A stretch of 64,000 nt of DNA from Gemmatimonadota bacterium (GTDB lineage: Bacteria; Gemmatimonadota; Gemmatimonadetes; Palauibacterales; KS3-K002), in assembly GCA_039586495.1 (NCBI GenBank), contig JBDHKG010000020.1, positions 1,181 to 65,180 of the forward strand. Reading direction: 5' to 3'. Below are positions 28,701 to 48,638 of this stretch, piece by piece. Both the position numbers and the translations under genes were made by a program. Each line of letters opens with the position of its first letter. Within the stretch, counting starts at the first letter, position 1. The notes beneath the pieces are model-generated. The model worked only from the letters and a program-made list of their open reading frames with translations, ran no database searches and was not told the origin of the DNA.

Positions 28701-29085
28701 TGAGGAGGGCGCGGAGAAATCGGCGGCGCGCTCCGAGGAAGAAAGCGCGAACAACGAGTTGATTGAGGCGGCCCGCGAGTTGAAGAAGACGCTCAAGGGG
28801 GTGGAGGAGCGGCTCTGGGTTCCGCCCGGCACCAAAGGCATTGTCGCCGAGACCGCGGTCTACTCGCGCATCGGGTACGTCTTGCGCGCCCTGAGCTCCT
28901 CGTGGGATGCGCCGACGCCGGCGCAGCAGACCTACACGCGTCAGGCGGAGGTGCGGCTCGAAGAGGTCCTTGCCGAGTTCAACCGTGTGTTCGCCGAGGA
29001 CGTGGCCGAGTTCCGGAACAAGGTCGAGGCGGCAGGGATCGAGTTCCTCGGGCCACAGGAGCCTCTGCAGATGCCGGAGCGCTAG
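25753..29085 (+). CDS. Secreted BNR/Asp-box repeat protein, copy 2 (tandem paralog of 22402..25614).
   Basis: 1110 aa, collinear with copy 1 over most of its length. It has an extra Glu/Ala-rich insert at about 28190..28290 and a 20-aa internal duplication. Confidence 0.85.
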   Translation: MLRRLISSGAAALLIVALAAPLHAQVDPELLAGMQARSIGPAGMSGRIADVEAVVSNPDIVYVGAATGGVWKSLNGGLTFEPIFDDQPVHAIGDIAIFQASPDIVWVGTGEGNPRNSVSVGNGVYRSLDGGRSWTHLGLDETERIHRIALHPSNPDVAYVGAIGKEWGESPERGLFKTEDGGATWRKILYVNETTGVGDMEMDPTNPNKLIVAMWDYRRWPWFFRSGGPGSGLYLTVDGGRNWKKLTPEDGLPEGDLGRIGLAIAPSNPNIVYALIEAKENALYKSEDGGYTWRRTGARDNIGSRPFYYFDLRVDPQDPNRVYSLWSLVSVSNDGGASFELLMTWDAAHPDHHAMWISPNDPTLIYEGNDGGVYVSRDRGETWRFVSNLPFAQFYHINVTMETPYNVLGGLQDNGSWRGPSVVWENGGIRNHHWEEVGFGDGFATLADPSDPMIGYAMSQEGFLTRWDLRTGERKDIRPAHPEGIELRFNWNAAIAIDPFEPSTVYYGSNWNAAIAIDPFEPSTVYYGSQFVHKSTDRGDTWEIISPDLTTNNPEWQKQAESGGLTLDVTGAENFTTIITIAPSPVEQAVIWVGTDDGRVQVTRDGGATWESVERNIRGVPANTWVPHIEPSKFDAATAFVVFDNHRRSDWTPYVYVTHDYGRRWRSLATDDLWGYALVIEQDPVKADLLFLGTEFGLYVSVDGGREWLKWTHGVPTASAMALIVHPREHDLVIGTHGRAAYILDDIRPLRSLTAETLAQPIHLFDIADAQQYMVKQTGASRFPGHAEFRGANRPYGALITYSLHIEGLPHPDEEVERQRKAAQREAGAPEEEAAGETAAAEREGPPDRGPQVTIEISDAEGEVIRSFKGPAKLGVNRVAWDLRRDSFRRPRGDEEMSFFERGGPEVLPGIFGVRIKYGEHEATGPVTVLPDPRYDILGADREAKFAGIMHAGALREVAAEAIDRIQDTRADIDVVLDKAKQGEEGAEKSAARSEEESANNELIEAARELKKTLKGVEERLWVPPGTKGIVAETAVYSRIGYVLRALSSSWDAPTPAQQTYTRQAEVRLEEVLAEFNRVFAEDVAEFRNKVEAAGIEFLGPQEPLQMPER
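27219..27339 (+). repeat. Perfect 60-bp tandem duplication (2 units) inside BNR copy 2. It is in-frame and duplicates NWNAAIAIDPFEPSTVYYGS.
   Basis: Unit 27220..27279 is identical to 27280..27339. Copy 1 has this motif once (FNWNAAIAVDPFDPNIVYYGSQFVHKS). Confidence 0.9.
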
Positions 29086-31076: not shown

Positions 31077-33182
31077 ATGAGAGCACCGTCTGGAGTCCGC
31101 GTTCTGACGCTTGGCGCGCACCTGTTTGCGGCGCTTGTAGGGTTGCCCTTTGTCGCCGCGGAGGCCTCAGCGCAGGCACCTCAGGACACGGTCGCGCCTG
31201 ACACGGTCTTCCTCGTCGAGGAGATCACGGTCCGGATCGCCCGGCCTGTCGCCACGGCAGGTGGCGCCAGCGCGCTCACCGCCGCACTGGACTCGTTGAG
31301 GGTGAGGGCGTCGCCGACGCTGGAGGAGGTGCTGCGGCAGGTACCGCTTATCCAGATCCGCGAGAACTCGCGGGGCGAGGCACAGCCGCAGCTGCGGGGC
31401 ATGGAGTCGCGAAATGTGGCGGTGTTGGTGGACGACGTGCCGCTCACGCTGGGCTGGGACAACCGCACTGACCTATCGGTCATCCCGCTGACGGCGGCCC
31501 GTGAACTGACATTGGTGCGAGGCCTCTCCTCGGTGCTCCACGGGCCGAACGCGCTGGGCGGTGTGGTTATCGTCGCTCTGGGAGATGGATCTTCTATCCC
31601 GCGTGATCTCCCGCCGCTGCGACTCTCGGCGGGCGTGGATCACCTGGGTGGCAGCGCCCTGGCCTTGGGGCTGGCGACCGTGTTCCGCGGCGATGCCGGT
31701 GATCTGCTGCTGCGGGCCGGGGGCGGCTACCGAAAACGTTCGGCGACGCCGCTGCCGTCAGGTTCGGATGAGGATCAGCGTGATCTCTTCGAACGCTTCG
31801 AGCAGGTGCCGCCGTCGGACGTCGACGATGAGCGCCTGAACAGCGACTTCGAGCAAGCCAACGGCTACGTCATAGCGCGCTATCAGGACGAAGACGGTCC
31901 TTGGGCGTCGCTCTCCTCCTTCGGTTTCGTGGCGGAGCGAGGTGTGCCGCCGGAACTGCATATCCGGGGACCGCGTCTGTGGCGCTACCCGAGGACGGCG
32001 CGCTGGGTGGCAGCTCTGTCCGCTGGCACCGGCTGGTCGGGTACACCGCTGGGCGAGGGTGATCTGGAGGCGAGCCTGGGGCTCGACTTCGGCGAGACGG
32101 AGATTGACGAGTATTGGACTCCGGCCTACGACTCCATCTCCTCCGGCGAGTCGGGGGACGACCGGACGCTATCGCTCCGGTTGTTGGGCGACCATACGCT
32201 GGGCCCGGGGATCCTGCGCGGCGCCCTCACACTTGTGGAGACGCGCCATGTGGAGGTCATCGACGACGGTGATCCCCGCTCGTACAAGCAGCGTCTCTGG
32301 AGCCTGGGACTCGAGGTTGAGCAGCCGTTCAGCGGGGGCGGACGGGCGTCGCCGCGGGCCAGGGTGAGCGTGGGCGTGAGCGTGGACGGGTCCGACACAC
32401 CGGAGGTGCCGGCGGACATCACACCCCGTGATCGCATCTGGGACTGGGGCGCCCGGGCCGGCGGGACGGTGGCACTGGGGGCGGGAAACGTGTTGCTCAA
32501 CGCCGGGGTGAGTCGCCGCGTTCGCTTCCCAGCGCTGCGGGAGCTCTACTCGGGTGCCCTTGGCAAGTTCGAGCCCAATCACGACCTCGGTCCGGAGGTT
32601 CTCGCCGTTGCGGAGCTGGGCGTCACGGCCCAGGTTGGCAAGCTGGAGGCGCAAGCTGTCGCGTTCCACCAGCGGCTCACCGACGCGATCGTCCGGGTCA
32701 GCATCGGTGACGGCAGGCTGCAACGGCAGAACCGTGACAAGATCCTCAGCACGGGGCTCGAGCTGTTGGCAAGCCACGCGTGGCGTGGGCTGGCACTGGC
32801 CGCGGACTTGACGCTCAAGGACGTCAGCCTGGAGGATCCGACGGTTCCGCAAGAGCAAGAGGAGCCCGAGTATCAGCCGTGGATCGCGGGCAGCCTCGCG
32901 TTGGCTACGCCGCTAGCCTTCGGCGTCTGGGCAAGCGGCCGCGTGCGGCACGTGGGCCGTCGCTACTGCGTGCACCCGGACCAAGAGGAGCAGGAGCGAG
33001 TGGGCGCCGACAGCTGGTTGGATCTCGAGGTCGGCCGTGGCTTCAATCTGCGTGGCGCCTATCCCGGCCGGCGCCTGGAGCTTACCTTCAGCGCGGACAA
33101 CGTGACGGACACGGCAGCCTACGATCAGTGCGGGCTGCCGCAACCGGGCCGGCTGCTACGCTTGCAGGTGCGTATTTTCTAG
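31077..33182 (+). CDS. TonB-dependent outer-membrane receptor.
   Basis: Signal peptide, a plug domain ('NVAVLVDDVPLTLGWDNRTDLSVIPL', 'LTLVRGLSSVLHGPNALGGVVIV'), a long barrel and a C-terminal '...LQVRIF' with terminal Phe. Confidence 0.85.
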   Translation: MRAPSGVRVLTLGAHLFAALVGLPFVAAEASAQAPQDTVAPDTVFLVEEITVRIARPVATAGGASALTAALDSLRVRASPTLEEVLRQVPLIQIRENSRGEAQPQLRGMESRNVAVLVDDVPLTLGWDNRTDLSVIPLTAARELTLVRGLSSVLHGPNALGGVVIVALGDGSSIPRDLPPLRLSAGVDHLGGSALALGLATVFRGDAGDLLLRAGGGYRKRSATPLPSGSDEDQRDLFERFEQVPPSDVDDERLNSDFEQANGYVIARYQDEDGPWASLSSFGFVAERGVPPELHIRGPRLWRYPRTARWVAALSAGTGWSGTPLGEGDLEASLGLDFGETEIDEYWTPAYDSISSGESGDDRTLSLRLLGDHTLGPGILRGALTLVETRHVEVIDDGDPRSYKQRLWSLGLEVEQPFSGGGRASPRARVSVGVSVDGSDTPEVPADITPRDRIWDWGARAGGTVALGAGNVLLNAGVSRRVRFPALRELYSGALGKFEPNHDLGPEVLAVAELGVTAQVGKLEAQAVAFHQRLTDAIVRVSIGDGRLQRQNRDKILSTGLELLASHAWRGLALAADLTLKDVSLEDPTVPQEQEEPEYQPWIAGSLALATPLAFGVWASGRVRHVGRRYCVHPDQEEQERVGADSWLDLEVGRGFNLRGAYPGRRLELTFSADNVTDTAAYDQCGLPQPGRLLRLQVRIF

Positions 33183-33206
33183 AAGGAACCGGAAGAGGCG
33201 CCGATC

Positions 33207-33617
33207 GTGAGTACGCAGCGGCAGAAGACCCTCCCATTCATCGTCGTGCTTGTGGCGATCGCTGTCCTGGCGCTCGGTATCGTTCTGCCTACAAGCGGTG
33301 CGCTGGAGCCGATGGAGGGGTTCGTACGCCGCTGGTTCTTCGCGGTCTTCTGCACGCTCTATGCGCTGGCCCAGGCGCGGGTCTATCGGATGCGCCGACG
33401 TCAGCAAGCGCGTGTGGCGAGCGACATGCCCGTCTTTTCGTTCGGCTTCTTCACCCTGCTCTGGTTCGTACTCGCCGTCGCCGCGGTCATCTACGGGATA
33501 GTCGGCCCTGGAGGGCGGTGGGAGACCGCCGCCTGGGTGACGGTCGGGCTCGTCGTCTCCATCCAGCTTGTCATCCTGGGCAGGCTGCAGCGCCGGACCG
33601 AGACCGAGCGAGGCTAG
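33207..33617 (+). CDS. Small integral membrane protein (hypothetical).
   Basis: GTG start. Four predicted TM helices. No recognisable family. Confidence 0.45.
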   Translation: MSTQRQKTLPFIVVLVAIAVLALGIVLPTSGALEPMEGFVRRWFFAVFCTLYALAQARVYRMRRRQQARVASDMPVFSFGFFTLLWFVLAVAAVIYGIVGPGGRWETAAWVTVGLVVSIQLVILGRLQRRTETERG

Positions 33618-33771: not shown

Positions 33772-34623
33772 ATGCGATGCTCAAGCCGATTTGCGCTCAC
33801 CTGCCTGGCGGGCCTGGCTGTCTGGATCGGCTGTCAGCCGGCGCAGCGTGAACCCGGCGATACGCTTGCGGCTCTCTTCTCGGGTGAGGAAGCTGAGTGG
33901 ATCGACATGAGCTACGCGTATGATGAGAGCACGATCTTCTGGCCGACGGCCCAGTCCTTCGAGCTGGAAGTCGTCTCGGCGGGCGTGACCGAGCGCGGCT
34001 ACTTCTACGCGTCCAACAACTTCTGCATGGCCGAGCACGGCGGCACGCACTTCGACGCGCCGATCCACTTCGCCGAAGGCGGGCAGACGGCGGAGCAGGT
34101 TCCGATCGAGCGGCTGATCGGCCCGGCGGTGGTGATCGATGTGAGCGCGGCGGCCGAGGCCGATCCTGACTATCAGATCGGCGTGAGCGACTTCGAGGCC
34201 TGGGAGGCGGAGCACGGGCGCATCCCTGAGGGCGCGATCGTGCTGCTGAACACCGGCTGGGGTGAGCGCTGGCCGGATCGTGGCCGCGTTCTCGGGACCA
34301 CGCTCACCGGTCCAGAGGCGGTCCCGGAGCTGCACTTCCCGGGCCTGCACCCGGACGCCGCCCGCTGGCTGGTGGAGAACCGGCAGATCGACGCGATCGG
34401 GCTCGACACGCCGAGCATCGACTACGGTCAGTCGACGCTGTTCGAGACCCATCGGGTCCTCTACGCCGCCAGCCTCCCGGCGCTGGAAAACGTAGCGCTG
34501 CTGGACAGGCTGCCGGCGACTGGCGCCTACGTGATCGCGTTGCCGATGAAGATCCGGCGCGGCAGCGGCGGCCCGACCCGCCTCGTGGGTGTGATTCCAC
34601 GTGCGGCGAGTGCAGGGGGTTGA
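33772..34623 (+). CDS. Cyclase-family protein (kynurenine formamidase-like, PF04199), lipoprotein.
   Basis: Signal with lipobox (LAVWIGC). Metal-binding motifs 'EHGGTHFDAPIHF' and 'IDAIGLDTPSIDYG'. Confidence 0.8.
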   Translation: MRCSSRFALTCLAGLAVWIGCQPAQREPGDTLAALFSGEEAEWIDMSYAYDESTIFWPTAQSFELEVVSAGVTERGYFYASNNFCMAEHGGTHFDAPIHFAEGGQTAEQVPIERLIGPAVVIDVSAAAEADPDYQIGVSDFEAWEAEHGRIPEGAIVLLNTGWGERWPDRGRVLGTTLTGPEAVPELHFPGLHPDAARWLVENRQIDAIGLDTPSIDYGQSTLFETHRVLYAASLPALENVALLDRLPATGAYVIALPMKIRRGSGGPTRLVGVIPRAASAGG

Positions 34624-34651
34624 GCGCGTAGGTGCGCGGTAGCCAACGCGT

Positions 34652-34679
34652 AAACAGAAAGGGCCGGCCGCGCCGGCCC
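34652..34679 (-). terminator. Bidirectional intrinsic terminator between convergent genes. It is a better fit for the minus-strand blaR-like gene.
   Basis: Perfect 8-bp stem gggccggc/gccggccc with loop cgc. On the minus strand it is followed by tttctgttta. Confidence 0.5.
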
Positions 34680-34723
34680 CTGTTGCACAGCCACTGACTC
34701 GAGTCGGGGATCACCGCCGCTTG

Positions 34724-36016
34724 CTAAGACTTGGGCTTAACGGCGAAGGTGATCGGGATCGCCATCCAGACCGGCACGACTTCCTCACGGTTACGGGCGG
34801 GTATGAACTCCCACTCGCGGGCCACCACCAGCCCCGCCGCGTCCAGCGCCTCGTTCCCAGAGCTCTCCTTCAGTTTCACGTTGGCGACGTTGCCGTCGCT
34901 ATCGATGAAAACCCAGACGACCATGGTGCCGCCGATGCCGGCACCTTTGAGGTCCTCCGGGTAGTGCCGCTCGACTGCGCGCTTCGCCTCCTCGAGGTCC
35001 TTGAACTCAGGCCTTGCCGTGTACGGCGTGAACACCGGCTCGGCGCCGATCTCTTGGGCAACGCTCTCCGCCGGCGGCAGGTCAACACCGCTCTCCGTCG
35101 ACTCCTGCGGCGCGCGCAGCTGACAGGCCGCGGCGAGCAGCGTGCCCGCAATCAGGGATGCGGCTATCGCACTCTCGACGCGCCGATGTGGTCTCCTGGC
35201 AGTCATGTTCCGAACTCTCCTTTCCAGAAACGTCTTGTGCTCCGCAAACGCCGTCGGAAGCGTCGCGAGCCCCGAGCCGTGGCGGGCTACCTCTAGCAGG
35301 AGCGTGCCATACAGCTGCGGCTGCGCACCCTTGAGCAGCACCCGCCCGTCACAGTCCAACTCCACCGCCAGACGCAGGCGGCGAAACTGCCACCACAGCG
35401 GAAGGTTCCACGGCATGAGGACAAGCGCCGCCAACGCGAAGCCGAGTAAACGATGATCTCCTGCGCGCACGTGCTCCTCCTCGTGCGTCAGCACTAATCG
35501 CCTAAGTCCCTCCTCCAGCTCCAGTGCCCAGCGGGGGATCACGATCCGGCCGCGGACTAGCCCCAGTACCGCCGGACCCAGCTGTCGTGAGATGAAGACC
35601 GTGCTGCCCGCGAGCACCTCCGCGGACCAGTCTCGGCTCTCGCTCCGGAGGCACCTGTAGGAGCGGAGGTAGAAGAGCAGCAAGGTGAGGGAGGCGAGCA
35701 GCCAGAGGGCAATGAGCACAGAGTCGATCTGCGCCAACAGCGGCCGCGTGGTCGGCCCCGCGCTCAAAGGCCCAGCAGCGACGGTAAGACCTTCCACGGC
35801 CGCCTGGAGCGCGGGTGGCAGCGACTCTCGCGAGAACCTTTGCCACCCAGGGAGGACATACGTGGAGAGGGGCAGGGCAAGAGACCCGATCATAGCGCCC
35901 AGCCAGACCCAGCGGACGGGCCGGCCGTAGAGGCGAAACGCGTGCTCAAACGCCAGGGCCGCACCCGCGAGCAGGAGGCCGACGACAAGGCAGTAAGCGA
36001 TCCAGGCCGCGATCAT
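34724..36016 (-). CDS. BlaR1-like M56 metallopeptidase signal transducer with a C-terminal TonB-C domain.
   Basis: HExxH site 'LTHEEEHVRAGDH' within an M56 TM region. The C-terminus 'GTMVVWVFIDSDGNVANVKLKESSGNEALDAAGLVVAREWEFIPARNREEVVPVWMAIPITF' is TonB C-terminal-like. It overlaps the upstream blaI by 4 nt. Confidence 0.8.
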   Translation of the reverse strand: MIAAWIAYCLVVGLLLAGAALAFEHAFRLYGRPVRWVWLGAMIGSLALPLSTYVLPGWQRFSRESLPPALQAAVEGLTVAAGPLSAGPTTRPLLAQIDSVLIALWLLASLTLLLFYLRSYRCLRSESRDWSAEVLAGSTVFISRQLGPAVLGLVRGRIVIPRWALELEEGLRRLVLTHEEEHVRAGDHRLLGFALAALVLMPWNLPLWWQFRRLRLAVELDCDGRVLLKGAQPQLYGTLLLEVARHGSGLATLPTAFAEHKTFLERRVRNMTARRPHRRVESAIAASLIAGTLLAAACQLRAPQESTESGVDLPPAESVAQEIGAEPVFTPYTARPEFKDLEEAKRAVERHYPEDLKGAGIGGTMVVWVFIDSDGNVANVKLKESSGNEALDAAGLVVAREWEFIPARNREEVVPVWMAIPITFAVKPKS

Positions 36017-36390
36017 GCTTCGCCCTCCTCTCCCAGCCGCTGGTTCAGAAGCTCACGCAGGCGGCGCAGTTCCGCCTCCGAGATGGCTTCTTCGGCGACG
36101 AGCTGGGTCAGTAACGCCTCCGGCGACCCGCTGAAGATCTTGCTGACCACGTGCCGCAGAGCGGTGGCGCGGGCCTCGTCACGGCCCACCAGCGGGAAGT
36201 AGCGGTGAGCGCGACCCTCTGGCTCGCGGCGCACGTGGCCCTTGGCCTCGAGGGTGCGCAGGATGGTGAGGACCGTGGTGTAAGCCAGGTCCGGCTCAAG
36301 GCGTTCCTGCACCTGCCGCACCGTGGCCGAGCCCAGGCCCCAGAGCACGGCCATAATGTCGAGCTCGCGATCGGTGAACGAGACGGACAT
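36013..36390 (-). CDS. BlaI/MecI/CopY-family transcriptional repressor.
   Basis: 125 aa. 'LDIMAVLWGLGSATVRQVQERL...YTTVLTILRTLEAKGHVRRE...RYFPLV' is a penicillinase-repressor wHTH. Confidence 0.85.
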   Translation of the reverse strand: MSVSFTDRELDIMAVLWGLGSATVRQVQERLEPDLAYTTVLTILRTLEAKGHVRREPEGRAHRYFPLVGRDEARATALRHVVSKIFSGSPEALLTQLVAEEAISEAELRRLRELLNQRLGEEGEA

Positions 36391-36409
36391 GTTGCCCCCC
36401 TGGCTATTT

Positions 36410-36471
36410 ACTATGCTTATAGTAGATGATAGGGCAGGGGGGCCGCTTTGTCAACTATTCATGTAGTAGAT
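36410..36471 (-). promoter_or_regulatory. blaI promoter (TTGACA-17-TATCAT on the minus strand) overlapped by two 18-bp operator-like boxes.
   Basis: Minus-strand -35 is TTGACA (plus coordinates 36449..36454). The 17-nt spacer precedes the -10 TATCAT (36426..36431). Box 1 ACTATGCTTATAGTAGAT (36410..36427) overlaps the -10. Box 2 ACTATTCATGTAGTAGAT (36454..36471) overlaps the -35. Fourteen of 18 positions are identical between the boxes, and each has dyad character (ACTAT..TAGTA). The region is flanked by CCCCCCTG...CAGGGGGG. Confidence 0.55.
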
Positions 36472-36491
36472 AAACAGGGCCGGGACACGCC

Positions 36492-37736
36492 CTACTCGTA
36501 GCGCAGCGCCTCCACCGGATCGACCTTCGCCGCCCGGCGCGCCGGTAGGATGCCGGCGGCTAGGCCGATCGCGATGAGCACACCGGCGCAGACGAGGGCG
36601 ATGGGCAGGGAGAGCTTGGGGTTGGCGATGTAGACCATGGCGCCGTCGTCGGCGGGCAGGCTGTCCACCCCGAGGATCACAGCGATCGAGAAGACGAGCC
36701 CGATGGTGCCGCCGATCAGCGTGAGCGCTACCGACTCGAAGATGAACTGGCCCATGATGTGGCGCCTGCGCGCGCCGATCGACCGCTTGATGCCGATCTC
36801 CTTCGTCCGCTCCTTCACGACCACGTACATGATGTTGGCGACGCCGACGCCGGCGACCAGCAGCGTGAACAGGCCCACCAGGCCGAGGAAGATCTCGATC
36901 CCATAGCCGATGGCGTTCACCTCTTTCTGGTCCTCGATGAAGTCCCACATGGGGAGGGCGCGCTCGTCTTCCGGGTCGAACTTGTACTTGGCCCCCAGCA
37001 CCCGGAACAGCTCCCCTCTAACGGACTCGGCGCGCATAACGTCCCGCGGCCTGAGCAGCAGGTGGCTCACGTAGCGCTGGCCGTAGATGTTCCTGAAGGT
37101 TGAGGCGGGGATGATCGCCCGGTCGGCGTCGGGCCCATTGTTCATGCTGTCCTGGAACTTCTTCTGCATGACGCCGATGACCGTGAACGGCAGGCCGTCC
37201 AACCTCACGGTCCTGCCCACGGGGTCTTCCTCACCGAACAGCTCCTCGGCGATCTCGTTGCCCAGGAACAGAACGCGCCGTCGCTCGTCCAGGTCGCGCT
37301 GGTTGATGAAGCGGCTGCCTGCGCGCGGGAACATCCGCCGCATCTCCTCGAAGGCGGGGTGGACGCCCTCCATGAAAGTAGTCGTTTTGTTGTCGCCAGC
37401 CTCCAGGGTGGTGCCCCAGCGGCCGTAAGAAGGGCTGACGAGGTCGATCTCGGGGATGGCGCGGCTGATGAGATCGAGGTCGTCTTCGATCAAGCGGACC
37501 TGGCGGCCCTTCGGCAGGCCCTCGTAGGGCATGCTGGTCACGCCGCCGTAGACCATGAAGATGCGCTCGCCCGCGTTGACTAGACCGCGGAGGATGGCGA
37601 GGCGGAGACCTTCGCCGAAGCCGAGGAGCAGGACGACCGCGATCGTGCCCCAGGTGATCGCGAACATGGTGAGCAAGACGCGGGTCTTCTGCGCCTTCAG
37701 GTCACCGATGAACTCGCCGAGTAGTATTCTCCACAT
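36492..37736 (-). CDS. ABC-transporter permease, FtsX/MacB-like, permease-only with no ATPase domain.
   Basis: 414 aa. N-terminal TM, a large periplasmic domain and three C-terminal TMs ('GVANIMYVVVKERTKEIGIKRSIGARRRHIMGQFIFES'). Confidence 0.85.
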   Translation of the reverse strand: MWRILLGEFIGDLKAQKTRVLLTMFAITWGTIAVVLLLGFGEGLRLAILRGLVNAGERIFMVYGGVTSMPYEGLPKGRQVRLIEDDLDLISRAIPEIDLVSPSYGRWGTTLEAGDNKTTTFMEGVHPAFEEMRRMFPRAGSRFINQRDLDERRRVLFLGNEIAEELFGEEDPVGRTVRLDGLPFTVIGVMQKKFQDSMNNGPDADRAIIPASTFRNIYGQRYVSHLLLRPRDVMRAESVRGELFRVLGAKYKFDPEDERALPMWDFIEDQKEVNAIGYGIEIFLGLVGLFTLLVAGVGVANIMYVVVKERTKEIGIKRSIGARRRHIMGQFIFESVALTLIGGTIGLVFSIAVILGVDSLPADDGAMVYIANPKLSLPIALVCAGVLIAIGLAAGILPARRAAKVDPVEALRYE

Positions 37737-37739
37737 GGC

Positions 37740-38972
37740 TCAGTACCGCAGGCACTCCACGGGGTCCAGGTTCGCCGCCTTGCGGGCGGGGAAGTATCCG
37801 GCGAGAAGCGCGACCCCGGTCAGCAGGACGATCGTGACGGTCGCGACGACCGGCGAGAGCGTGGGCCGACCGACGAACTCCTGCATCGGCAGGTTGGCTC
37901 CGAGTCTGATGATCGCCAGGGAGATGACGAAGCCGAGGGCGGCGCCGCTGCCGACGACGACGAAGGCTTGGCCGAGGAACTGGAGCAGGATGTCGCGCTT
38001 GCGGGCGCCGACGGAGCGTCGGATGCCGATCTCACGGGTGCGTTCCTTGACGACGATGTACATGATGTTGGCCACGCCGATACCGCCGACGGTCAGCGTG
38101 AAGGCGCCGACGATCCCGAGAAAGATGTTCATGCCGAGGAAGATGGCGTTGGCCATCTGATCGTATTCATGGGTGTCCCACTCCATCAGGGCATCGTCGT
38201 CGCTCGGGTCGTAGCGGTACTTGCGGCCCAGCACCTCGTTGATGCGCCGCTCCACGCCCCGGGTCACCTCGGGGGTGCTGGTGCGGTAGACGATGTTGGC
38301 CAGGTAGCGCTGGCCGAAGATCGCCCTGTGCGTGCTTGCCGGGATGAAGACGCGGTCGCGGTCGCGCGAGTTGTAGGAGGAATTCTGCTGCTTCTCCTTG
38401 AGCACGCCGATGACGGTGAACGGCACGTCGCCGACGAACACCTGCTTACCGACCGGGTTCTCGTCCTCGAATAGGAGATTGGTCAGCTCGTTGCCTAGGA
38501 AGGCCACGCGGCGCCGCTCGTCCATGTCCGCCTGGTTGATGAAGCGGCCGCCCCAGTCGGGGATCACGTTGCGCATGTCGCCGAAGACCGGGTAGACGCC
38601 GGTCACGTTGGGCCGCGCGCTGTTCCGCCCGCGCCGCACCGCAACGCCCCAGCGGCTGTATTCCGGGCTGATCTGGAGGATGTCGGGGATCTCGCGCTGC
38701 AGCAGACGGACATCCTCCTCTTGCAGCCGGATGAAGCGCCCTTCCGGGAAGCCCTCGTAGGTCTTGGTCGTTCGGTTGCCGAAGACGATGACGATCCGCT
38801 CGCCGATACCGTGCATCCGCTTGCGGGTCTGCCTCTCCAGACCGACGCCGAAGGCCAGCAGCACGACCACGGCGACGGTGCCCCAGGTGATCCCCATGAT
38901 GGTGAGCACCGTGCGCAGCCGCTGCGTGCGGATGTCGTTGAAGAAGTCCGTGAAGCTGCCGAAGATCCGCAT
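37740..38972 (-). CDS. ABC-transporter permease, FtsX/MacB-like, permease-only, paralog of 36492..37736.
   Basis: 410 aa with the same architecture ('GVANIMYIVVKERTREIGIRRSVGARKRDILLQFLGQA'). Confidence 0.85.
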   Translation of the reverse strand: MRIFGSFTDFFNDIRTQRLRTVLTIMGITWGTVAVVVLLAFGVGLERQTRKRMHGIGERIVIVFGNRTTKTYEGFPEGRFIRLQEEDVRLLQREIPDILQISPEYSRWGVAVRRGRNSARPNVTGVYPVFGDMRNVIPDWGGRFINQADMDERRRVAFLGNELTNLLFEDENPVGKQVFVGDVPFTVIGVLKEKQQNSSYNSRDRDRVFIPASTHRAIFGQRYLANIVYRTSTPEVTRGVERRINEVLGRKYRYDPSDDDALMEWDTHEYDQMANAIFLGMNIFLGIVGAFTLTVGGIGVANIMYIVVKERTREIGIRRSVGARKRDILLQFLGQAFVVVGSGAALGFVISLAIIRLGANLPMQEFVGRPTLSPVVATVTIVLLTGVALLAGYFPARKAANLDPVECLRY

Positions 38973-38980
38973 GGCTTGGC

Positions 38981-40072
38981 CTACTCGATCTCGCGCGGCG
39001 GCGGCTCGACCACCTTCTCGCCCTCTTCCAGGCCGGAGATGACCTCGACGTTGATGGCATCGCTGAGCCCGGTCTCGATGACACGCTCCTCCTGGGTCCC
39101 GTCATCCAGCAGCACGGTCACGCGGGCAGTGTCACTTGAGATTCTGATGAGCCGTTCTGGGATCATCAGGGCATCGTCGCGCCGGTCGATGATGACGTCG
39201 GCCTGGGCTGAGTAGCCTGCCCGCAGGACCACGTCGTCCGTGGGATCGAGGGTGATCTCGACGGGGAAAACCGTGGCGTTGTCCTGGGTTCGTGCCTTGA
39301 GCGAGATCTTGTAGAGCGTGCCGGTCACGCTGGCGTTCGGTAGCGCGCCGATCTTGATCTCTACCGGCATCCCCTCACGCAGGCGTCCCACATCGATCTC
39401 GTCCACGCTGCCGCGGAAGATCAGCGAGCTCATCTCCGCCATCGTGATGAGCACTGTCCCCTCCTGGTACGGGTTGAGCGGCACGACCGGGTCTCCGATC
39501 TCGACGTTCTTCTCCAGGATGAATCCGTCGATGGGCGACTTGATGATGGCGTCGATGTTCTGGTCGGCCATGCGGACACGGCCTTCCTCGAGCAGTGCCA
39601 GCCGTTCCTCCGCCAGCTTCAAGTTGAGTTCCGCTTCGTCGTAGGCGCGCTCCGCGGTCTCGTACTGGTCCTGAGAGATGAGGCCCTGGTCCATCAGGCT
39701 GCGCTGGCGAGCCAGCTCGCGGCGCTGGTTCTCGAGCTCGAGTTGGCGCAGCTCGAGCTGGCGCCGCGTCTCCACCAGTTCGAGAGGCGTCGGCGTCGGC
39801 TTGATCTCCAGCAGCGGGGCGCCGGCCCGGACGAACTCGCCGACTTCGGCGAACTCCTGGCTCACCACGCCGGAGATCTTCGACTTGACGCTGATCTCCA
39901 CCTCGGGCTCGATCTGGCCGACGGCGAGCGCCTTGTCGACGATCTCGCCGCGCTCGACCTCGACGGTCCTGACATCGTTGCCGTTCGAGCCGCCGTTGCG
40001 GACGGCGGCGACCGCTCCAACGCCGACCACGGCGGCGGCGACGCCGAGGACGACCTTAGTCCGTCGCTTCAT
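38981..40072 (-). CDS. Periplasmic adaptor / membrane-fusion protein (HlyD/MacA family).
   Basis: N-terminal TM, a coiled-coil region ('LELRQLELENQRRELARQRSLMDQGLISQDQYETAERAYDEAELNLKLAEERLALLEE'), and beta-barrel/lipoyl segments. Confidence 0.85.
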   Translation of the reverse strand: MKRRTKVVLGVAAAVVGVGAVAAVRNGGSNGNDVRTVEVERGEIVDKALAVGQIEPEVEISVKSKISGVVSQEFAEVGEFVRAGAPLLEIKPTPTPLELVETRRQLELRQLELENQRRELARQRSLMDQGLISQDQYETAERAYDEAELNLKLAEERLALLEEGRVRMADQNIDAIIKSPIDGFILEKNVEIGDPVVPLNPYQEGTVLITMAEMSSLIFRGSVDEIDVGRLREGMPVEIKIGALPNASVTGTLYKISLKARTQDNATVFPVEITLDPTDDVVLRAGYSAQADVIIDRRDDALMIPERLIRISSDTARVTVLLDDGTQEERVIETGLSDAINVEVISGLEEGEKVVEPPPREIE

Positions 40073-40270
40073 CCTGACTGCTCCGTAGAGAAAAGCTGGT
40101 GTGTCTGCTGTCTGTGGGATTCAGGCCAGAACGCGGCTGCCTGTCCCACCTGCCCGGCCCCTTCCCGGGCCCTCCAACCCTTCGGGGCGCGAGAATGGGG
40201 CCTTACATGCGACACTACGGAGGTGGGCCGGCGGGAGGTTTCAGCCTGGCCGCCGGCCGCCGGGACCCGC

Positions 40271-42352
40271 CTACTCGAAGACCTGGCGGGATTCCAGGTG
40301 CGCCTCGATCTCCTCACGGGTCCGCCAGACCGGGCGCAGCTCCTTGCGGGCCACGAGCTCGAGCTGGTCCATGAGGTGCGGCGAGCTGGGCTGGCTGGCG
40401 TTGCCGTAGCCGAGCACCGCCATGGCCTTCACGGGGTCGGAGAACTCGATGGCCGCGACGTAGCTGTCGCCGCCGAAGGCCTGGAAGTGCGCGTCCTCGG
40501 TGGGTTGATACCAGGCGGCTCGGAAGATGCCCAGGTTGTCCCGGCCGCCGTTCCCCGGGAGGTCCAGCCCGCCTCCGCGCAGCCGGTGCACGTCACCATA
40601 AGGCACGTCGAGGGCGCCGTAGGCGGAATCGACTCGCACCGCGGCGGCCTCCAGGGCTGCTGCTGCGGCGGCGGGGTCCGCCAGACCGTCGGGCGTTTCG
40701 AGGGGAGACTCGGGGCTCCAGGCCACCGCGAAGGCTCTGGCGCCGAAGCGGCCCATCAGCCCCTCCAGGAAAGCGATGAAGAGGACGGCGCCGCGACTCT
40801 CCGCGTCGGTCTTCCGGTCCCACCTCTCCAGCACGTCAGCGGCTTGGCGGGCGAGCGCGCCGCCGTGCTCCCGTGTGGCCGCGATCACGTCATCCAGGAT
40901 ACGGTCGGCCAACTCCACACGCGTGGAGTGCTTGTAGGCGACCAGCTCGTCGAACGTGATGGATTCGTCTTCCGACAGCATCCGCGCTGAGCGCTGCGCG
41001 CGGAAGTGCATGAAGCGGGGCGCCATGTAGTCGGGGTAGTCTTCGGGATCGAGCGCGCGGGGGAATGTGGTCGTCCAGGGCGGGTCGTTGGCGTTCTGGA
41101 GCCAGCCGCTCTCCGGGTCGAGCACGCGGGGCAAGTCCTCGTAAGGGTGCGTCTCCGTCCAAAGGGTCGCCGATGTATCACCGGGCGCAACCAACCTCCA
41201 GTCCCATGGCCCGGCCGGCCTCACCGGCGTCAAGCCGCCGAAGAGGTGCATGATGTGGCCGTCGCGGTCGGCGTACATCACGGTGAACATGGCGAGCTGC
41301 ATGCGCTTGAGCGCCGCCTCGAACTCGCCCAGGTTCGCGGCTTGGGCCATCTCCCACCACTGCTCCAACAACCCAGGACGATCGAGGCCCACCATGCGAA
41401 GGGCCAGCGCGGAACCACCGTTCTCGAAGACCACCGGGCCGTGGACGGAACGTTTGACCTGGAGAGGCTCCTCACGGAGCACGCTGTCCGGCCCCTTGAC
41501 CCGCAGGGTGTACTCTTCGGTCTCGAAAGGCTGCACGCCGCCGTCCCAACCGTAGCCGTCCTCCGTGAGGGTGAGCTCATAGAGGTCAGCGCCGTCGAAG
41601 GTGTTGACGGTATGGGTCCAGCCGAGATAGTCGTTGAAGGCGATGGCGAGCGTGGGAATCCCCACCAGGGTCGTGCCGTAGACGTCGATACCCGGGCCGA
41701 CGAGCTGAGCCTCGTAGAACAGAAACAGGTCAGACCAGGGCAGGTGTGGGTTCGCCAGCAGCATGGCGTTGCCGCTGGCCGAGCGGGAGCGTGCAATGGC
41801 CCAGGCGTTGGAGCCGGCGGCCTGCCATGCTCGCGCGATGTGGGCGACCGCGTCCTGGCTGAAGACGAAGGTGAAGAGAACTGCGCGCTGGAAGTGGGCC
41901 AGCACGTCGGTGGCATCCACCGGCAGGACGACCTCGACTTCGTCGTTGATCTCGTCGCTGTGCTCGGCGGCGTACGCGTTGAAGCCTTCCGCGAAGGCAT
42001 CGAGGTTCCGGCGGAATGCGGGTTTCTGGGCCTCGTACCAGCTTCGGGCACGCTCGGGCAGGCCCACGGTGACGAGCCAGCGATCCGAGCCCAGGTAGTC
42101 CTCGCCCCAGTACTCCGCGGCCCGGGCGCGGGCCTGTCCGTACAGCCTGAGGATGAGATCGCCGTGGCTCTGCGCCTGGGCCCAGCCGAAGCCGTAGAAC
42201 AGCTCCTCCTGGCTCCTCCCATAGATGTGCGGGACGCCCCAGGTGTCCCAGAGGATCTCCGTACGCTCCGGCCCGGAGGGCCGGCAGGCGCCCGCCACTA
42301 GAGCGGCAGCAGTCAGTGCTACGGCAAGAGAGCGCCGATTTCTCGAGATCAT
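40271..42352 (-). CDS. Penicillin acylase / Ntn-hydrolase family (penicillin amidase or AHL acylase-like), lipoprotein.
   Basis: The internal start at 42352 gives MISRNRRSLAVALTAAALVAGAC, with GGGAGG upstream. The beta-subunit N-terminal nucleophile context is 'GSNAWAIA'. Confidence 0.85.
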   Translation of the reverse strand: MISRNRRSLAVALTAAALVAGACRPSGPERTEILWDTWGVPHIYGRSQEELFYGFGWAQAQSHGDLILRLYGQARARAAEYWGEDYLGSDRWLVTVGLPERARSWYEAQKPAFRRNLDAFAEGFNAYAAEHSDEINDEVEVVLPVDATDVLAHFQRAVLFTFVFSQDAVAHIARAWQAAGSNAWAIARSRSASGNAMLLANPHLPWSDLFLFYEAQLVGPGIDVYGTTLVGIPTLAIAFNDYLGWTHTVNTFDGADLYELTLTEDGYGWDGGVQPFETEEYTLRVKGPDSVLREEPLQVKRSVHGPVVFENGGSALALRMVGLDRPGLLEQWWEMAQAANLGEFEAALKRMQLAMFTVMYADRDGHIMHLFGGLTPVRPAGPWDWRLVAPGDTSATLWTETHPYEDLPRVLDPESGWLQNANDPPWTTTFPRALDPEDYPDYMAPRFMHFRAQRSARMLSEDESITFDELVAYKHSTRVELADRILDDVIAATREHGGALARQAADVLERWDRKTDAESRGAVLFIAFLEGLMGRFGARAFAVAWSPESPLETPDGLADPAAAAAALEAAAVRVDSAYGALDVPYGDVHRLRGGGLDLPGNGGRDNLGIFRAAWYQPTEDAHFQAFGGDSYVAAIEFSDPVKAMAVLGYGNASQPSSPHLMDQLELVARKELRPVWRTREEIEAHLESRQVFE

Positions 42353-42368
42353 GTTCGCCTCCCGGCGT

Positions 42369-43160
42369 TCAGAGGAGCCCGCGGACATAGCCGCCGTCGA
42401 TCTGGACCGTCGCGCCCGTGATGTAGGCGGCCCGCTCCGAGGCGAGAAAGGCCACCAGGTCGCCGAGCTCCTTGGGGTCGCCCATGCGCCCGGCGGGGAT
42501 GGCGGTCACCAGCTGGGCCGTGATGTCCGTGACGCTCTTTCGCGACTCGGCGGCCCGCTGTTCCAGAAGTTCCGTCACCCGATCGGTCGCCATATAGCCT
42601 GGACAGACCACGTTCACCGTGATCCCCTCCGCGGCGAATTCCTCAGCGATCGTCTTGGCGTAGCCGACGACGCCGGGCCGGGCCGTGTTGGAGAGGATCA
42701 AGCCGGGGATCGGCGACTTCACCGAGACCGAAGTGAGGCAGATGATGCGGCCCCAACGATTCTTGCGCATGTGCGAGATCGCTGCCTGGGCGAGGCGGAT
42801 GGTGCTCAGCAGGTTCAGCTCCAGCGCTTCGGCCCAGGCCTCGGGCGGCGTGTTGATGCTGGTCGTGGCCGGCGGCCCGCCCGCGTTGCAGACCAGGATG
42901 TCGAGCCGCCCGAACTGCTTGATCGTCGCCTCGACGAAGTCACGCGGTCCGTCTTCGGTGGCGAGGTCGGTGGGGTGGGCGAAGATCTCCTGGCCGGAGG
43001 CGCGATGTAGGGCCACACCGGCGTGCTCGAGCCGCTCCTCGTCGCGGGCGCAGATCGCGACACGGGCGCCTTCCCGAGCCAAAGCCCAGGCGATAGCCTT
43101 ACCGAGCCCGCTGCTCGCGCCGCCGACCGCTGCGACTCTTCCCTCGAGTCCCAAGTCCAT
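42369..43160 (-). CDS. SDR-family oxidoreductase.
   Basis: Internal start at 43160 (MDLGLEGRVAAVGGASSGLGKAIA) carries the Rossmann TGxxxGxG-like motif, and an 'NAG' motif is present. The ORF-track start at 43232 looks too long. Confidence 0.8.
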   Translation of the reverse strand: MDLGLEGRVAAVGGASSGLGKAIAWALAREGARVAICARDEERLEHAGVALHRASGQEIFAHPTDLATEDGPRDFVEATIKQFGRLDILVCNAGGPPATTSINTPPEAWAEALELNLLSTIRLAQAAISHMRKNRWGRIICLTSVSVKSPIPGLILSNTARPGVVGYAKTIAEEFAAEGITVNVVCPGYMATDRVTELLEQRAAESRKSVTDITAQLVTAIPAGRMGDPKELGDLVAFLASERAAYITGATVQIDGGYVRGLL

Positions 43161-48531: not shown

Positions 48532-48597
48532 GAGGGCTCAAAATAGGGGGTGGGGTTGGTGTTGTCAAGTACTTTGCATTGTAAAGGAGATAGGGGG

Positions 48598-48626: not shown

Positions 48627-48638
48627 CGGTATCCCAGG

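What the first reader, a model, noticed from the sequence alone, without database searches (positions are those of the whole stretch)
34724..40072. BlaI/BlaR1-like (M56 peptidase with TonB-C domain) pair co-oriented with an MFP plus two FtsX-only permeases and no ABC ATPase
On the minus strand the gene order is MFP, FtsX permease, FtsX permease, a 100-nt regulatory gap with the BlaI operators, blaI, and the BlaR1-like M56 protease with a TonB C-terminal domain. A strong terminator follows.

The two permeases are MacB/DevC-like but lack any nucleotide-binding domain, and no ATPase gene is nearby. The signal-transducing protease has a TonB-C domain instead of a penicillin-binding sensor. This may be an uncharacterised envelope-sensing and export module, possibly energised by a trans-encoded ATPase or the TonB system.
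Basis: partly seen in the sequence, partly recalled or inferred. Interest (0 to 1): 0.7.

Follow-up and report, generated by a model that had tools for sequence, protein, structure and literature searches.

The report
Orphan MacB-type exporter beside BlaI/BlaR-TonB sensor
A Gemmatimonadota chromosome carries a widely conserved efflux-pump membrane unit that lacks its ATPase gene, next to a separate self-regulating repressor/sensor-protease pair; both kinds are already known as families, and their pairing here is specific to one lineage.

Summary
No ABC ATPase is encoded anywhere in the 64 kb.

The five genes are not one conserved module. The adaptor plus two FtsX/MacB permeases form a triad found in 70 complete copies across Gemmatimonadota, Rhodothermales, Balneolales and Bacteroidota. 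No ATPase gene lies inside or beside any copy. The NBD-coupling helices are among the most conserved segments, so a trans-encoded ATPase is the likeliest energy source.

The BlaI/M56-TonB_C pair follows the triad only in a patchy subset of one Gemmatimonadota clade. Its two operator dyads flank only its own promoter, and none precedes the exporter genes. M56+TonB_C is already reported as the second commonest M56 architecture.

One lead was unexpected. Other Gemmatimonadota carry a highly conserved stand-alone MacB-class ATPase, and a BlaI/M56-TonB_C cassette often sits directly upstream of it. BlaI/BlaR cassettes also sit beside other FtsX permeases. This suggests a link between these sensors and split MacB-type transporters, but does not prove one.

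This is a new variant of known kinds, of moderate interest.

The parts
38981..40072 (-). Periplasmic adaptor (membrane fusion protein, MacA/RND-MFP type), 363 aa; first gene of the conserved triad
   Evidence: Pfam HlyD_3 and HlyD_D23. NCBIfam TIGR01730 RND_mfp at 150 bits, above the 94.9 cut-off. Orthologs at 48-82% identity lie directly before the two permeases in 70 loci.
37740..38972 (-). FtsX/MacB-type permease 1, 410 aa (4-TM FtsX domain plus MacB periplasmic core domain, no NBD)
   Evidence: Pfam MacB_PCD 123 bits and FtsX 72 bits. It matches MacB residues 265-645 only. It is 47% identical to permease 2. TM2 with coupling helix 1 and the C-terminal coupling helix 2 are among its most conserved segments across 80 orthologs.
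36492..37736 (-). FtsX/MacB-type permease 2, 414 aa; presumed heterodimer partner of permease 1
   Evidence: Pfam MacB_PCD 128 bits and FtsX 72 bits. It aligns full-length with the transmembrane halves of E. coli, A. baumannii and A. actinomycetemcomitans MacB (5nik, 5gko, 5lil; E values 1e-33 to 1e-36). The alignment includes ERTKEIGI against ERTREIGI in coupling helix 1 and the C-terminal LPAR..DPVEAL motif. There are 80 orthologs at 57-83% identity.
36426..36454 (-). Sigma-70-like promoter of blaI-blaR: TTGACA, 17-nt spacer, TATCAT
   Evidence: It matches the consensus at 11 of 12 positions and is the only such site in 34400-40400. It is conserved in L006, L011 and L012, and in distant cassettes L089 and L128.
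36452..36469 (-). Operator dyad 1, CTACTACATGAATAGTTG, overlapping the -35 hexamer
   Evidence: The same dyad at the same position occurs in relatives. In about 690 kb of BlaR loci, 70 of 83 dyad sites lie within 160 nt upstream of blaI, typically as pairs about 44 nt apart.
36408..36425 (-). Operator dyad 2, CTACTATAAGCATAGTAA, immediately after the -10 hexamer
36013..36390 (-). BlaI/MecI/CopY-family winged-helix repressor, 125 aa
   Evidence: Pfam Penicillinase_R 112 bits. It aligns full-length with M. tuberculosis BlaI (2g9w) and S. aureus MecI (1sd6, 1okr). It scores below the NCBIfam BlaI and MecI cut-offs. Its stop overlaps the blaR start by 4 nt.
34724..36016 (-). M56 zinc-protease signal transducer with a periplasmic TonB C-terminal domain, 430 aa. 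HEEEH lies at residues 178-182. Hydrophobic segments lie at 5-23, 37-55, 99-117, 190-208 and 280-300. TonB_C spans residues 350-425.
   Evidence: Pfam M56 64 bits and TonB_C 57 bits. H178, E179, H182, E219, D221, D223 and the TonB Y352-P353 motif are invariant in 30 homologs. The family profile hits S. aureus BlaR1 (8exp) and TonB C-terminal domains. In the AlphaFold model (pLDDT 82), the top Foldseek hits are BlaR1 and TonB C-terminal domains, at 1.7-1.9 A to TonB in its FoxA, BtuB and FhuA complexes. Hydropathy and charge distribution place TonB_C in the periplasm.
34659..34681 (-). Intrinsic-terminator-like hairpin ending the blaI-blaR unit
   Evidence: A 10-bp stem with 8 G-C pairs and a 3-nt loop, followed by a T-rich tail. 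The next gene is a convergent cyclase at 33772-34623.
40271..42388 (-). Neighbour, not part of the conserved unit: a penicillin-amidase/Ntn-hydrolase family acylase inserted between the SDR gene and the MFP gene
   Evidence: Pfam Penicil_amidase 450 bits. Its PvdQ score is 241 bits against a cut-off of 950. tblastn finds it in none of the 80 related triad loci, where the SDR gene directly precedes the MFP gene.

Best explanation
The locus holds two adjacent but separable units.

Unit 1 is the adaptor plus permease 1 plus permease 2. It is the membrane and periplasmic part of a MacAB-like (type VII ABC) tripartite exporter. The two paralogous permeases form a LolC/LolE-style heterodimer. They are driven by a MacB/LolD-class ATPase dimer encoded elsewhere in the genome and use an outer-membrane channel that is also encoded elsewhere. 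The substrate is unknown; by analogy it is taken from the periplasm or the outer leaflet.

Unit 2 is blaI plus the M56-TonB_C gene. It is a self-contained, autoregulated signalling cassette. A BlaI dimer binds two dyads that bracket its own promoter. The membrane zinc protease is inferred to cleave BlaI when its periplasmic TonB_C domain is engaged, most plausibly by an exposed TonB box of an outer-membrane TonB-dependent receptor.

The cassette landed, or was retained, downstream of the triad in one Gemmatimonadota clade. It is not needed for the triad and does not control the triad's promoter.

Shown: the domain identities, the conservation pattern, the operator location, the absence of an ATPase, and the intact coupling helices. 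Inferred: the heterodimer, the trans ATPase, BlaI cleavage, and the TonB-box signal.
For: - Triad conservation. The triad is present in 80 species-level genomes from several phyla at 57-83% identity. It is the only gene block shared by all of these loci.
- No adjacent ATPase. Seventy loci hold all three genes, and none has an NBD gene inside or abutting the triad. Of 34 loci with at least 5 kb on both sides, 31 have no MacB-type NBD. In the other 3 it lies at least 2 kb away on the opposite strand, and in L046 and L052 it sits beside a separate set of permease-like genes.
- Coupling helices. The permeases align with the whole MacB transmembrane half, including both NBD-coupling helices (the role of CH1 and CH2 is described in PMC8277102). 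These segments are among the most conserved across 80 orthologs.
- Candidate ATPase. A stand-alone MacB/LolD/FtsE-class ATPase family exists in Gemmatimonadota. Members are 75-95% identical, and no permease lies within 5-6 kb on either side.
- Patchy BlaI/BlaR. The pair follows the triad only in the window, L006, L011, L012, L085, L086 and L174. It is absent without remnants in close relatives L005, L007, L009, L010, L014, L017 and L018, and in every more distant locus.
- Operator location. The operator pair occurs only at the blaI promoter in the window and in relatives. Only the ribosome-binding site is conserved upstream of the MFP gene. Across about 690 kb of BlaR loci, the dyads sit before blaI or blaR, or before a downstream target, and never before MFP or FtsX genes.
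- Sensor identity. The M56 and TonB_C identity and topology are supported.
- Literature. About 96% of M56 proteins lie near a BlaI, and M56+TonB_C is the second commonest architecture.
Against: - There is no terminator between permease 2 and blaI, so read-through co-transcription is possible.
- The pair has stayed at this exact site while BlaR diverged to 51-55% identity. The association is therefore old within the clade and may be selected.
- BlaI/BlaR cassettes also abut other MacB-type parts in unrelated loci. L089 has PadR, a duplicated FtsX permease, BlaI and BlaR. L128 and L156 have MFP, ATPase, a duplicated permease, BlaI and M56-DUF3471. L095, L137, L171, L172 and L173 have BlaI, BlaR and a stand-alone ATPase.
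- MacB-type genes are roughly 3 times denser in BlaR flanks than in triad flanks. The taxa differ between the two sets, and several loci are orthologous.
- It was not shown that the window's own genome encodes the stand-alone ATPase.
Confidence: 0.6

Rival explanations
1. There is real functional coupling. BlaI/M56-TonB_C cassettes are recurrent accessory regulators or sensors of split MacB-type transporters. In the window, the cassette is co-transcribed with the triad or senses an envelope state created by it. A paralogous cassette elsewhere gates expression of the shared stand-alone ATPase.
For: - The cassette is co-oriented with the triad, with a 101-nt gap and no terminator after permease 2.
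- The pair has been retained for a long time at this site.
- Independent adjacencies occur in L089, in L128 and L156, and in L095, L137, L171, L172 and L173. In L173 the gap between BlaR and the ATPase is only 9 nt.
- Five of 48 BlaR loci with more than 1.5 kb of upstream flank have a MacB-type gene as an immediate neighbour (about three independent cases).
Against: - The triad lacks the pair in the great majority of species, including nested close relatives.
- The stand-alone ATPase also occurs without the cassette (L175-L178). The cassette also occurs at that locus without the ATPase (L090).
- No operator precedes any exporter gene.
- The enrichment test lacks a taxon-matched background.
- The ATPase-linked BlaRs are no closer to the window's BlaR (39-43%) than other paralogs are.
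Confidence: 0.22
2. The triad works without any ABC ATPase. It could be a proton-motive-force-driven or passive envelope device, or a sensor or scaffold. Separately, the first reader suggested it is energised through the TonB_C protein.
For: An adjacent NBD gene is absent in 70 triad loci across several phyla. Orphan FtsX permeases (the ADOP family, TIGR03434) are a recognised phenomenon. Both permeases hit that model at 126-131 bits, below its 622 cut-off.
Against: - Both NBD-coupling helices are intact and are among the most conserved segments.
- No FtsX-family protein is known to work without an NBD (the PMC8277102 review, describes only NBD-coupled members).
- The M56-TonB_C protein lacks a TonB-type N-terminal anchor and is absent from most triad loci.
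Confidence: 0.07
3. This is a canonical beta-lactam sensing and resistance locus: BlaI/BlaR1 with a penicillin amidase and an efflux pump.
For: The family names alone suggest it: Penicillinase_R, Peptidase_M56 and Penicil_amidase.
Against: - There is no transpeptidase or penicillin-binding sensor domain. The blaR1_generic model scores 34.5 bits against a cut-off of 400, and the BlaI and MecI models score far below their cut-offs.
- The acylase is unique to this genome and is not PvdQ or a known penicillin acylase by score.
- Only about 6% of M56 proteins carry the beta-lactam-binding domain.
Confidence: 0.03

Closest known systems
MacAB-TolC (E. coli) and related type VII ABC tripartite exporters such as PvdRT-OpmQ, DevBCA and YknXYZ
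   Same: It has the same adaptor and the same permease fold: 4 TM helices plus the MacB periplasmic core domain, with coupling helices CH1 and CH2. It aligns full-length with the MacB transmembrane half.
   Different: No NBD is fused or adjacent, and this state is conserved in 70 loci. There are two paralogous permeases (47% identical) instead of a homodimer. No outer-membrane factor is encoded in the window.
LolCDE (heterodimeric LolC/LolE permeases with a LolD dimer)
   Same: Two paralogous FtsX-type permeases sit in tandem. A separately encoded ATPase is the norm for this class.
   Different: It has a membrane fusion protein, which Lol systems lack. Scores against the lolCE, LolC and LolE models are far below their cut-offs (57 against 362 bits). 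The ATPase is unlinked rather than in the operon.
ADOP family (duplicated orphan FtsX permeases, TIGR03434) of Acidobacteria and relatives
   Same: These are FtsX/MacB_PCD permeases with no ABC ATPase gene nearby. Partial matches reach 126-131 bits. A true ADOP-like gene lies next to a BlaI/BlaR cassette in L089.
   Different: Here there are single-copy 410-aa permeases in a pair with an adaptor, not an 800-aa duplicated protein with a PadR regulator. The score is below the 622-bit cut-off.
BlaI/BlaR1 and MecI/MecR1 of Staphylococcus
   Same: The repressor and the M56 membrane zinc protease are encoded as a pair. The operators are dyads at the pair's own promoter. The HEXXH motif and the fold of the TM and protease domain match BlaR1 (8exp, 8exr).
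   Different: The sensor is a TonB C-terminal domain, not a penicillin-binding domain. No beta-lactamase or PBP2a target gene is under the operators. The gene order is blaI then blaR. The residues at the MecI N101-F102 cleavage position are Q-L.
M56-TonB_C proteins such as Bacteroides thetaiotaomicron TonB1 and TonB10, and non-canonical BlaIR systems such as C. difficile CenIR
   Same: The domain architecture is identical. It is reported as the second commonest M56 architecture, usually with a BlaI upstream, and its function is uncharacterised.
   Different: None in architecture. This is a Gemmatimonadota member placed after an orphan exporter.

Membership tests
Type VII ABC (MacB/FtsX) exporter | Permease with a 4-TM FtsX domain and a large periplasmic core domain between TM1 and TM2 | tested here: met
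   Both permeases have Pfam MacB_PCD (123-128 bits) and FtsX (72 bits). They align with MacB structures at E values of 1e-33 to 1e-36.
Type VII ABC (MacB/FtsX) exporter | Cognate NBD, either fused (MacB) or encoded in the same operon (LolD, FtsE, DevA, YknY) | tested here: not met
   No NBD is found in the 64 kb. None lies inside or abutting the triad in 70 related loci.
Type VII ABC (MacB/FtsX) exporter | Cytoplasmic coupling helices CH1 (TM2-TM3 loop) and CH2 (C-terminus) that dock the NBD | tested here: met
   ERT(K/R)EIGI and PAR..A..DPVE.LR align with MacB CH1 and CH2. They are among the most conserved segments in 80 orthologs. Definitions come from PMC8277102.
Type VII ABC (MacB/FtsX) exporter | ATP-driven transport of a periplasmic or outer-leaflet substrate through adaptor and outer-membrane channel | not testable with these tools
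   This needs biochemistry or genetics. No OEP/TolC gene was found among the window ORFs scanned.
MacA/RND-type membrane fusion protein | Score above the curated TIGR01730 cut-off, with barrel-sandwich and beta-barrel domains | tested here: met
   TIGR01730 scores 150.4 bits against 94.9. HlyD_3 and HlyD_D23 are present. The MacA equivalog scores 82.8 against 342, so it is not met.
LolCE lipoprotein-release permeases | Score above the lolCE equivalog cut-off; no adaptor; linked lolD | tested here: not met
   TIGR02212 scores 57.5 and 41.7 bits against 362. An adaptor is present and no lolD is linked.
ADOP duplicated orphan permease (TIGR03434) | Protein of about 800 aa with two FtsX modules; no nearby ATPase | tested here: not met
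   These are single-module proteins of 410-414 aa, scoring 126-131 bits against 622. Only the 'no nearby ATPase' trait is shared.
BlaI/MecI/CopY repressors (Penicillinase_R) | N-terminal winged helix plus C-terminal dimerisation helices; binds dyads at its own promoter | tested here: met
   Pfam scores 112 bits against 22.6. It aligns full-length with 2g9w, 1sd6 and 1okr. Two conserved dyads bracket the promoter. DNA binding itself was not tested.
BlaR1/MecR1 beta-lactam sensor-transducers | M56 gluzincin protease domain with HEXXH embedded in a 4-TM scaffold | tested here: met
   Pfam M56 scores 64 bits against 31. H178, E179 and H182 are invariant. The profile and the fold both match BlaR1 8exp and 8exr.
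BlaR1/MecR1 beta-lactam sensor-transducers | Extracellular penicillin-binding (class D beta-lactamase-like or transpeptidase) sensor domain | tested here: not met
   The C-terminal domain is TonB_C. NF000326 blaR1_generic scores 34.5 bits against 400.
TonB energy transducers | C-terminal domain with the YP motif and the fold that pairs with TonB boxes | tested here: met
   TonB_C scores 57 bits and TIGR01352 scores 58.9 against 27.1. Y352 and P353 are invariant. The fold is 1.7-1.9 A from TonB in the FoxA, BtuB and FhuA complexes.
TonB energy transducers | Single N-terminal TM anchor that couples to ExbB/ExbD, and a long Pro-rich periplasmic spacer | tested here: not met
   The N-terminal 300 residues are the multi-TM M56 domain. 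The linker (residues 301-345) is short and not Pro-rich.

The most novel reading that the evidence does not exclude
Gemmatimonadota, and perhaps other FCB-group bacteria, may run a genomically split type VII ABC system. Many ATPase-less FtsX permease units, namely this adaptor-permease-permease triad and the ADOP-like permeases, would share one highly conserved stand-alone MacB-class ATPase. BlaI/M56-TonB_C cassettes sit beside both halves: after the triad here, and before the stand-alone ATPase in L095, L171, L172 and L173. They would gate the system in response to TonB-box exposure on outer-membrane receptors. That would be a new kind of cell-surface signalling feeding an export machine.
Probability: 0.1. 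Interest if true: 0.75.

Novelty: new variant of a known kind. Interest (0 to 1): 0.42.

Why it matters
Type VII (MacB/FtsX) transporters are understood as fixed permease-ATPase pairs. This triad has kept its NBD-docking helices while lacking a linked ATPase in dozens of species across several phyla. A conserved stand-alone MacB-class ATPase exists in the same phylum. Together these point to ATPase sharing among exporters. Such sharing is known to me only for sugar importers (MsiK, MsmK; from my own knowledge, not checked here).

It also adds a defined operator/promoter module (CTACTA-N6-TAGTWG, twice, around TTGACA-17-TAxxAT) for the very large but uncharacterised BlaI/M56-TonB_C family. That module could be used to read their regulons from sequence.

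As it stands, this is an orderly annotation result with one testable lead, not a new system.

Tried and rejected
- ATPase just outside the finding or elsewhere in the window. Motif scans, phmmer and Pfam all found none.
- Permeases as pseudogenised MacB fragments. Rejected: they are full-length, conserved and intact.
- BlaI operator in front of the MFP gene or any other window gene. None was found at 2 mismatches or fewer. At 3 mismatches the count equals chance, with 17 observed against 13.7 expected. Upstream of the MFP gene, only the ribosome-binding site is conserved.
- Conserved flanking partner such as TolC, a regulator or an ATPase around the triad. Clustering of flanking ORFs in 80 loci showed that only the triad is shared. 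The ZnuC/ZnuB-like genes upstream in one clade are an unrelated importer type.
- A pyoverdine-like story (PvdQ acylase next to a PvdRT-like pump). The acylase is below the PvdQ cut-off and is absent from all related loci.
- LolCE identity. Scores are far below the cut-offs and an adaptor is present.
- Structured RNAs in the window. No Rfam hit reached gathering score.
- Enrichment of MacB-type genes near BlaR cassettes. The density is about 3 times that in triad flanks, but the taxa are unmatched and several loci are orthologous, so I treat it as suggestive only.
- Whether ATPase-linked BlaRs are the closest paralogs of the window's BlaR. They are not; they are 39-43% identical, like other paralogs.
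- Literature search for this triad, or for orphan type VII permeases in Bacteroidetes or Gemmatimonadetes. Nothing specific was found.
- An intein in the long DnaE. No support was found.
- Showing that the window's own lineage carries the stand-alone ATPase. This was not possible, because the collection scans and contig look-ups were exhausted.

Full report
**1. What is in the window**

On the minus strand, from 40072 down to 34724, lie five ORFs with strong coding signal (GC3 0.81-0.92). Their domains come from Pfam and NCBIfam.
- Adaptor/MFP, 38981-40072, 363 aa: HlyD_3, and TIGR01730 at 150 bits against a cut-off of 94.9.
- Two FtsX/MacB_PCD permeases, 37740-38972 (410 aa) and 36492-37736 (414 aa).
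- A Penicillinase_R repressor, 36013-36390, 125 aa.
- A 430-aa protein with Peptidase_M56 (64 bits) and TonB_C (57 bits), 34724-36016.

The blaI stop overlaps the blaR start by 4 nt. The 101-nt gap before blaI contains the only strong sigma-70-like promoter of the region, TTGACA-17-TATCAT, matching 11 of 12 positions. A hairpin terminator follows blaR at 34659-34681.

Two dyads lie at 36452-36469 and 36408-36425. The first overlaps the -35 hexamer and the second abuts the -10 hexamer. They occur nowhere else in the 64 kb at 2 mismatches or fewer.

No ABC ATPase is encoded anywhere in the window. This rests on motif scans, on phmmer with a MacB-type NBD against all six-frame ORFs, and on Pfam scans of the remaining ORFs.

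**2. Source**

Identical copies of this stretch occur on metagenome contigs. The nearest genomes are Gemmatimonadota MAGs. The surroundings are ordinary chromosome: DnaE, cytochromes, TonB-dependent receptors and TPR proteins.

**3. The exporter triad is a conserved, free-standing, ATPase-less unit**

A scan of one genome per species with permease 2 returned 80 loci. Identity is 66-83% in Gemmatimonadota and 57-63% in Rhodothermales, Balneolales and Bacteroidota.

In 70 of these loci all three genes are present in the same order. Clustering of all flanking ORFs shows the triad is the only block common to the loci. The flanks change from clade to clade.

No NBD gene lies inside or next to the triad in any locus. 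Of 34 loci with at least 5 kb on both sides, 31 have no MacB-class NBD at all. In the other three it lies at least 2 kb away on the opposite strand. In L046 and L052 it sits next to separate permease-like genes.

The permeases are not relics. They align from end to end with the transmembrane half of MacB structures. The alignment covers the CH1 coupling helix (ERTKEIGI against ERTREIGI) and the C-terminal CH2. The roles of CH1 and CH2 are described in PMC8277102. TM2 with CH1, together with CH2 and TM1, are the best-conserved segments across the 80 orthologs.

The two permeases are 47% identical paralogs and are kept as a pair everywhere. This suggests a LolC/LolE-like heterodimer.

I conclude, by inference, that the triad needs a MacB-class ATPase dimer and an outer-membrane channel that are encoded elsewhere.

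**4. The BlaI/BlaR pair is a separate, self-regulating cassette**

The M56 domain carries an invariant HEXXH (H178, E179, H182) plus E219, D221 and D223. The TonB_C domain keeps the YP motif.

The family profile hits S. aureus BlaR1 and many TonB C-terminal domains. An AlphaFold model (pLDDT 82) finds BlaR1 cryo-EM structures first. It then finds TonB C-terminal domains, at 1.7-1.9 A to TonB bound to FoxA, BtuB and FhuA.

Hydropathy and charge distribution place the protease loops in the cytoplasm and TonB_C in the periplasm.

The repressor aligns full-length with M. tuberculosis BlaI and S. aureus MecI.

The promoter/operator module is conserved in relatives. It is also conserved in distant cassettes with other sensor domains. 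In about 690 kb of loci holding BlaR relatives, 70 of 83 dyad sites lie within 160 nt upstream of blaI. The rest lie before a blaR gene or, in L166, before a downstream CBM9/DUF5916 gene. None lies before an MFP or FtsX gene.

Upstream of the window's MFP gene, only the ribosome-binding site is conserved among relatives. Locally, therefore, BlaI controls only blaI-blaR.

**5. Is the five-gene arrangement a module?**

From the triad side, no. The pair follows permease 2 only in the window, L006, L011, L012, L085, L086 and L174. All of these belong to the clade with about 80% triad identity.

Close relatives L005, L007, L009, L010, L014, L017 and L018 lack the pair, with no remnant detectable even at E = 1. 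Carriers and non-carriers are interleaved in a permease-2 tree. All more distant loci lack it.

The sensor part also varies among orthologs: 430 aa, 514-537 aa, or 613 aa with two TonB_C domains.

From the BlaR side, more distant homologs sit in other contexts.

Against a purely accidental adjacency, three points stand. The pair has stayed at this site while BlaR diverged to 51-55% identity. There is no terminator before blaI. And BlaI/BlaR cassettes recur beside MacB-type parts elsewhere.
- L089: PadR, a duplicated FtsX permease, BlaI, BlaR.
- L128 and L156: MFP, ATPase, a duplicated permease, BlaI, M56-DUF3471.
- L095, L137, L171, L172 and L173: BlaI, M56-TonB_C, then a stand-alone MacB-class ATPase.

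**6. The stand-alone ATPase**

The ATPase is about 230 aa. Its best NCBIfam matches are DarD, the MacB NBD, FtsE, LolD and DevA, all below their cut-offs. It is 75-95% identical among the listed hits; those that carry a source name are mostly Gemmatimonadota or Longimicrobiales.

It lies in a stable housekeeping neighbourhood: GGDEF, aminotransferase, phosphoglycerate mutase, DUF218 and M16 peptidases. No permease lies within 5-6 kb on either side.

At that locus the BlaI/BlaR cassette is again optional. The ATPase occurs alone in L175-L178, and the cassette occurs alone in L090. No operator lies between blaR and the ATPase.

This family is a credible trans partner for orphan FtsX permeases of the phylum. 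I could not show that the window's own genome carries it.

A crude density comparison gives about 12 MacB-type genes per 523 kb of BlaR flanks, against 7 per 944 kb of triad flanks. That is roughly 3-fold. The taxa are not matched and several loci are orthologous, so I treat it as a lead only.

**7. Comparison with what is known**

- M56+TonB_C is reported as the second commonest of 254 M56 architectures. About 96% of M56 proteins lie near a BlaI, and true beta-lactam sensors are only about 6% (bioRxiv 10.64898/2026.04.08.717257).
- B. thetaiotaomicron TonB1 and TonB10 have this architecture and are uncharacterised (PMC10350073).
- Orphan FtsX permeases are known as the ADOP family (TIGR03434). 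The present permeases match that model only partially.
- I found no paper on this adaptor-permease-permease triad or on a shared type VII ATPase.
- The locus fails the membership tests for BlaR1 proper (no penicillin-binding domain), for TonB proper (no ExbBD-coupled anchor), for LolCE, and for ADOP.
- It meets the tests for the M56, TonB_C, Penicillinase_R, MacB_PCD/FtsX and RND_mfp families.

**8. Verdict**

It overreaches in treating the five genes as one module and in invoking TonB energisation.

The best-supported reading is two separable units (confidence 0.6). A weaker functional-coupling hypothesis remains open (0.22).

In novelty this is a variant of known kinds. The main value lies in three things: the conserved ATPase-less triad, the defined BlaI operator module, and the stand-alone ATPase lead.

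Noticed in passing
L095:7585-10803; also L137, L171:3582-6699, L172:3494-6693, L173:3809-6702: There is a conserved three-gene unit in other Gemmatimonadota: BlaI, then M56 with two TonB_C domains (about 600 aa), then a stand-alone MacB/LolD-class ATPase (about 230 aa, 75-95% identical across hits). No permease lies within 5-6 kb on either side. In L175-L178 the same ATPase sits at the same locus without the cassette. In L090 the cassette sits there without the ATPase.
   Followed up: partly
window 40271-42388 (-): A penicillin-amidase/Ntn-hydrolase family acylase (705 aa) lies between the SDR gene and the MFP gene, and its start overlaps the SDR stop by 20 nt. tblastn finds no trace of it in any of the 80 related triad loci, where the SDR gene directly precedes the MFP gene. 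It looks like an insertion specific to this genome.
   Followed up: partly
L166:1002-5054: BlaI plus a short M56 protein (315 aa, no sensor domain) is followed by a second copy of the promoter plus two-dyad module. That module sits directly in front of an 880-aa CBM9-like/DUF5916 protein. This is a readable example of a BlaI-family target gene. L161 shows the same second module at its contig end.
   Followed up: partly
L089:3506-8272; L128:217-6674; L156: BlaI/BlaR cassettes lie directly downstream of other FtsX-type exporters. L089 has PadR plus an 887-aa duplicated (ADOP-like) permease. L128 has MFP, ABC ATPase and an 825-aa duplicated permease, here with an M56-DUF3471 sensor instead of TonB_C.
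   Followed up: partly
L074:7513-15491: The whole adaptor-permease-permease triad is tandemly duplicated in one uncultured bacterium.
   Followed up: no
L031, L038, L042, L044, L047, L049 (upstream of the triad): In one Gemmatimonadota clade, ZnuC-like ATPase and ZnuB-like (ABC-3) permease genes sit co-oriented just upstream of the MFP gene. This is an importer type and is probably unrelated to the triad.
   Followed up: no
window 12095-22351 (+) and 22402-29085 (+): Five consecutive TPR-repeat proteins (497-788 aa) have a lower GC3 than the rest of the window. Two paralogous Sortilin/BNR-repeat proteins of 1070-1110 aa follow them.
   Followed up: no
window 48524-52699 (+): DnaE is unusually long (1391 aa). 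Its PHP domain is split, and the pol III alpha domain starts only at residue 553. No intein or other Pfam domain was found in the extra segment.
   Followed up: partly
window 8833-9438 (-): An isolated Hcp (type VI secretion tube protein) gene has no other T6SS genes among the window ORFs that were scanned.
   Followed up: no
window 31077-33617 (+): A TonB-dependent receptor (701 aa) plus a small 136-aa membrane protein form a pair conserved in the related Gemmatimonadota loci. In L011, L012 and L085 the pair lies convergent and directly next to the BlaI/BlaR cassette. It is a candidate source of the TonB box that the sensor might read.
   Followed up: no
window 55202-62640: There is a cluster of multihaem c-type cytochromes (420 and 661 aa, the latter NapC/NirT-like) and two cytochrome b genes.
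   Followed up: no
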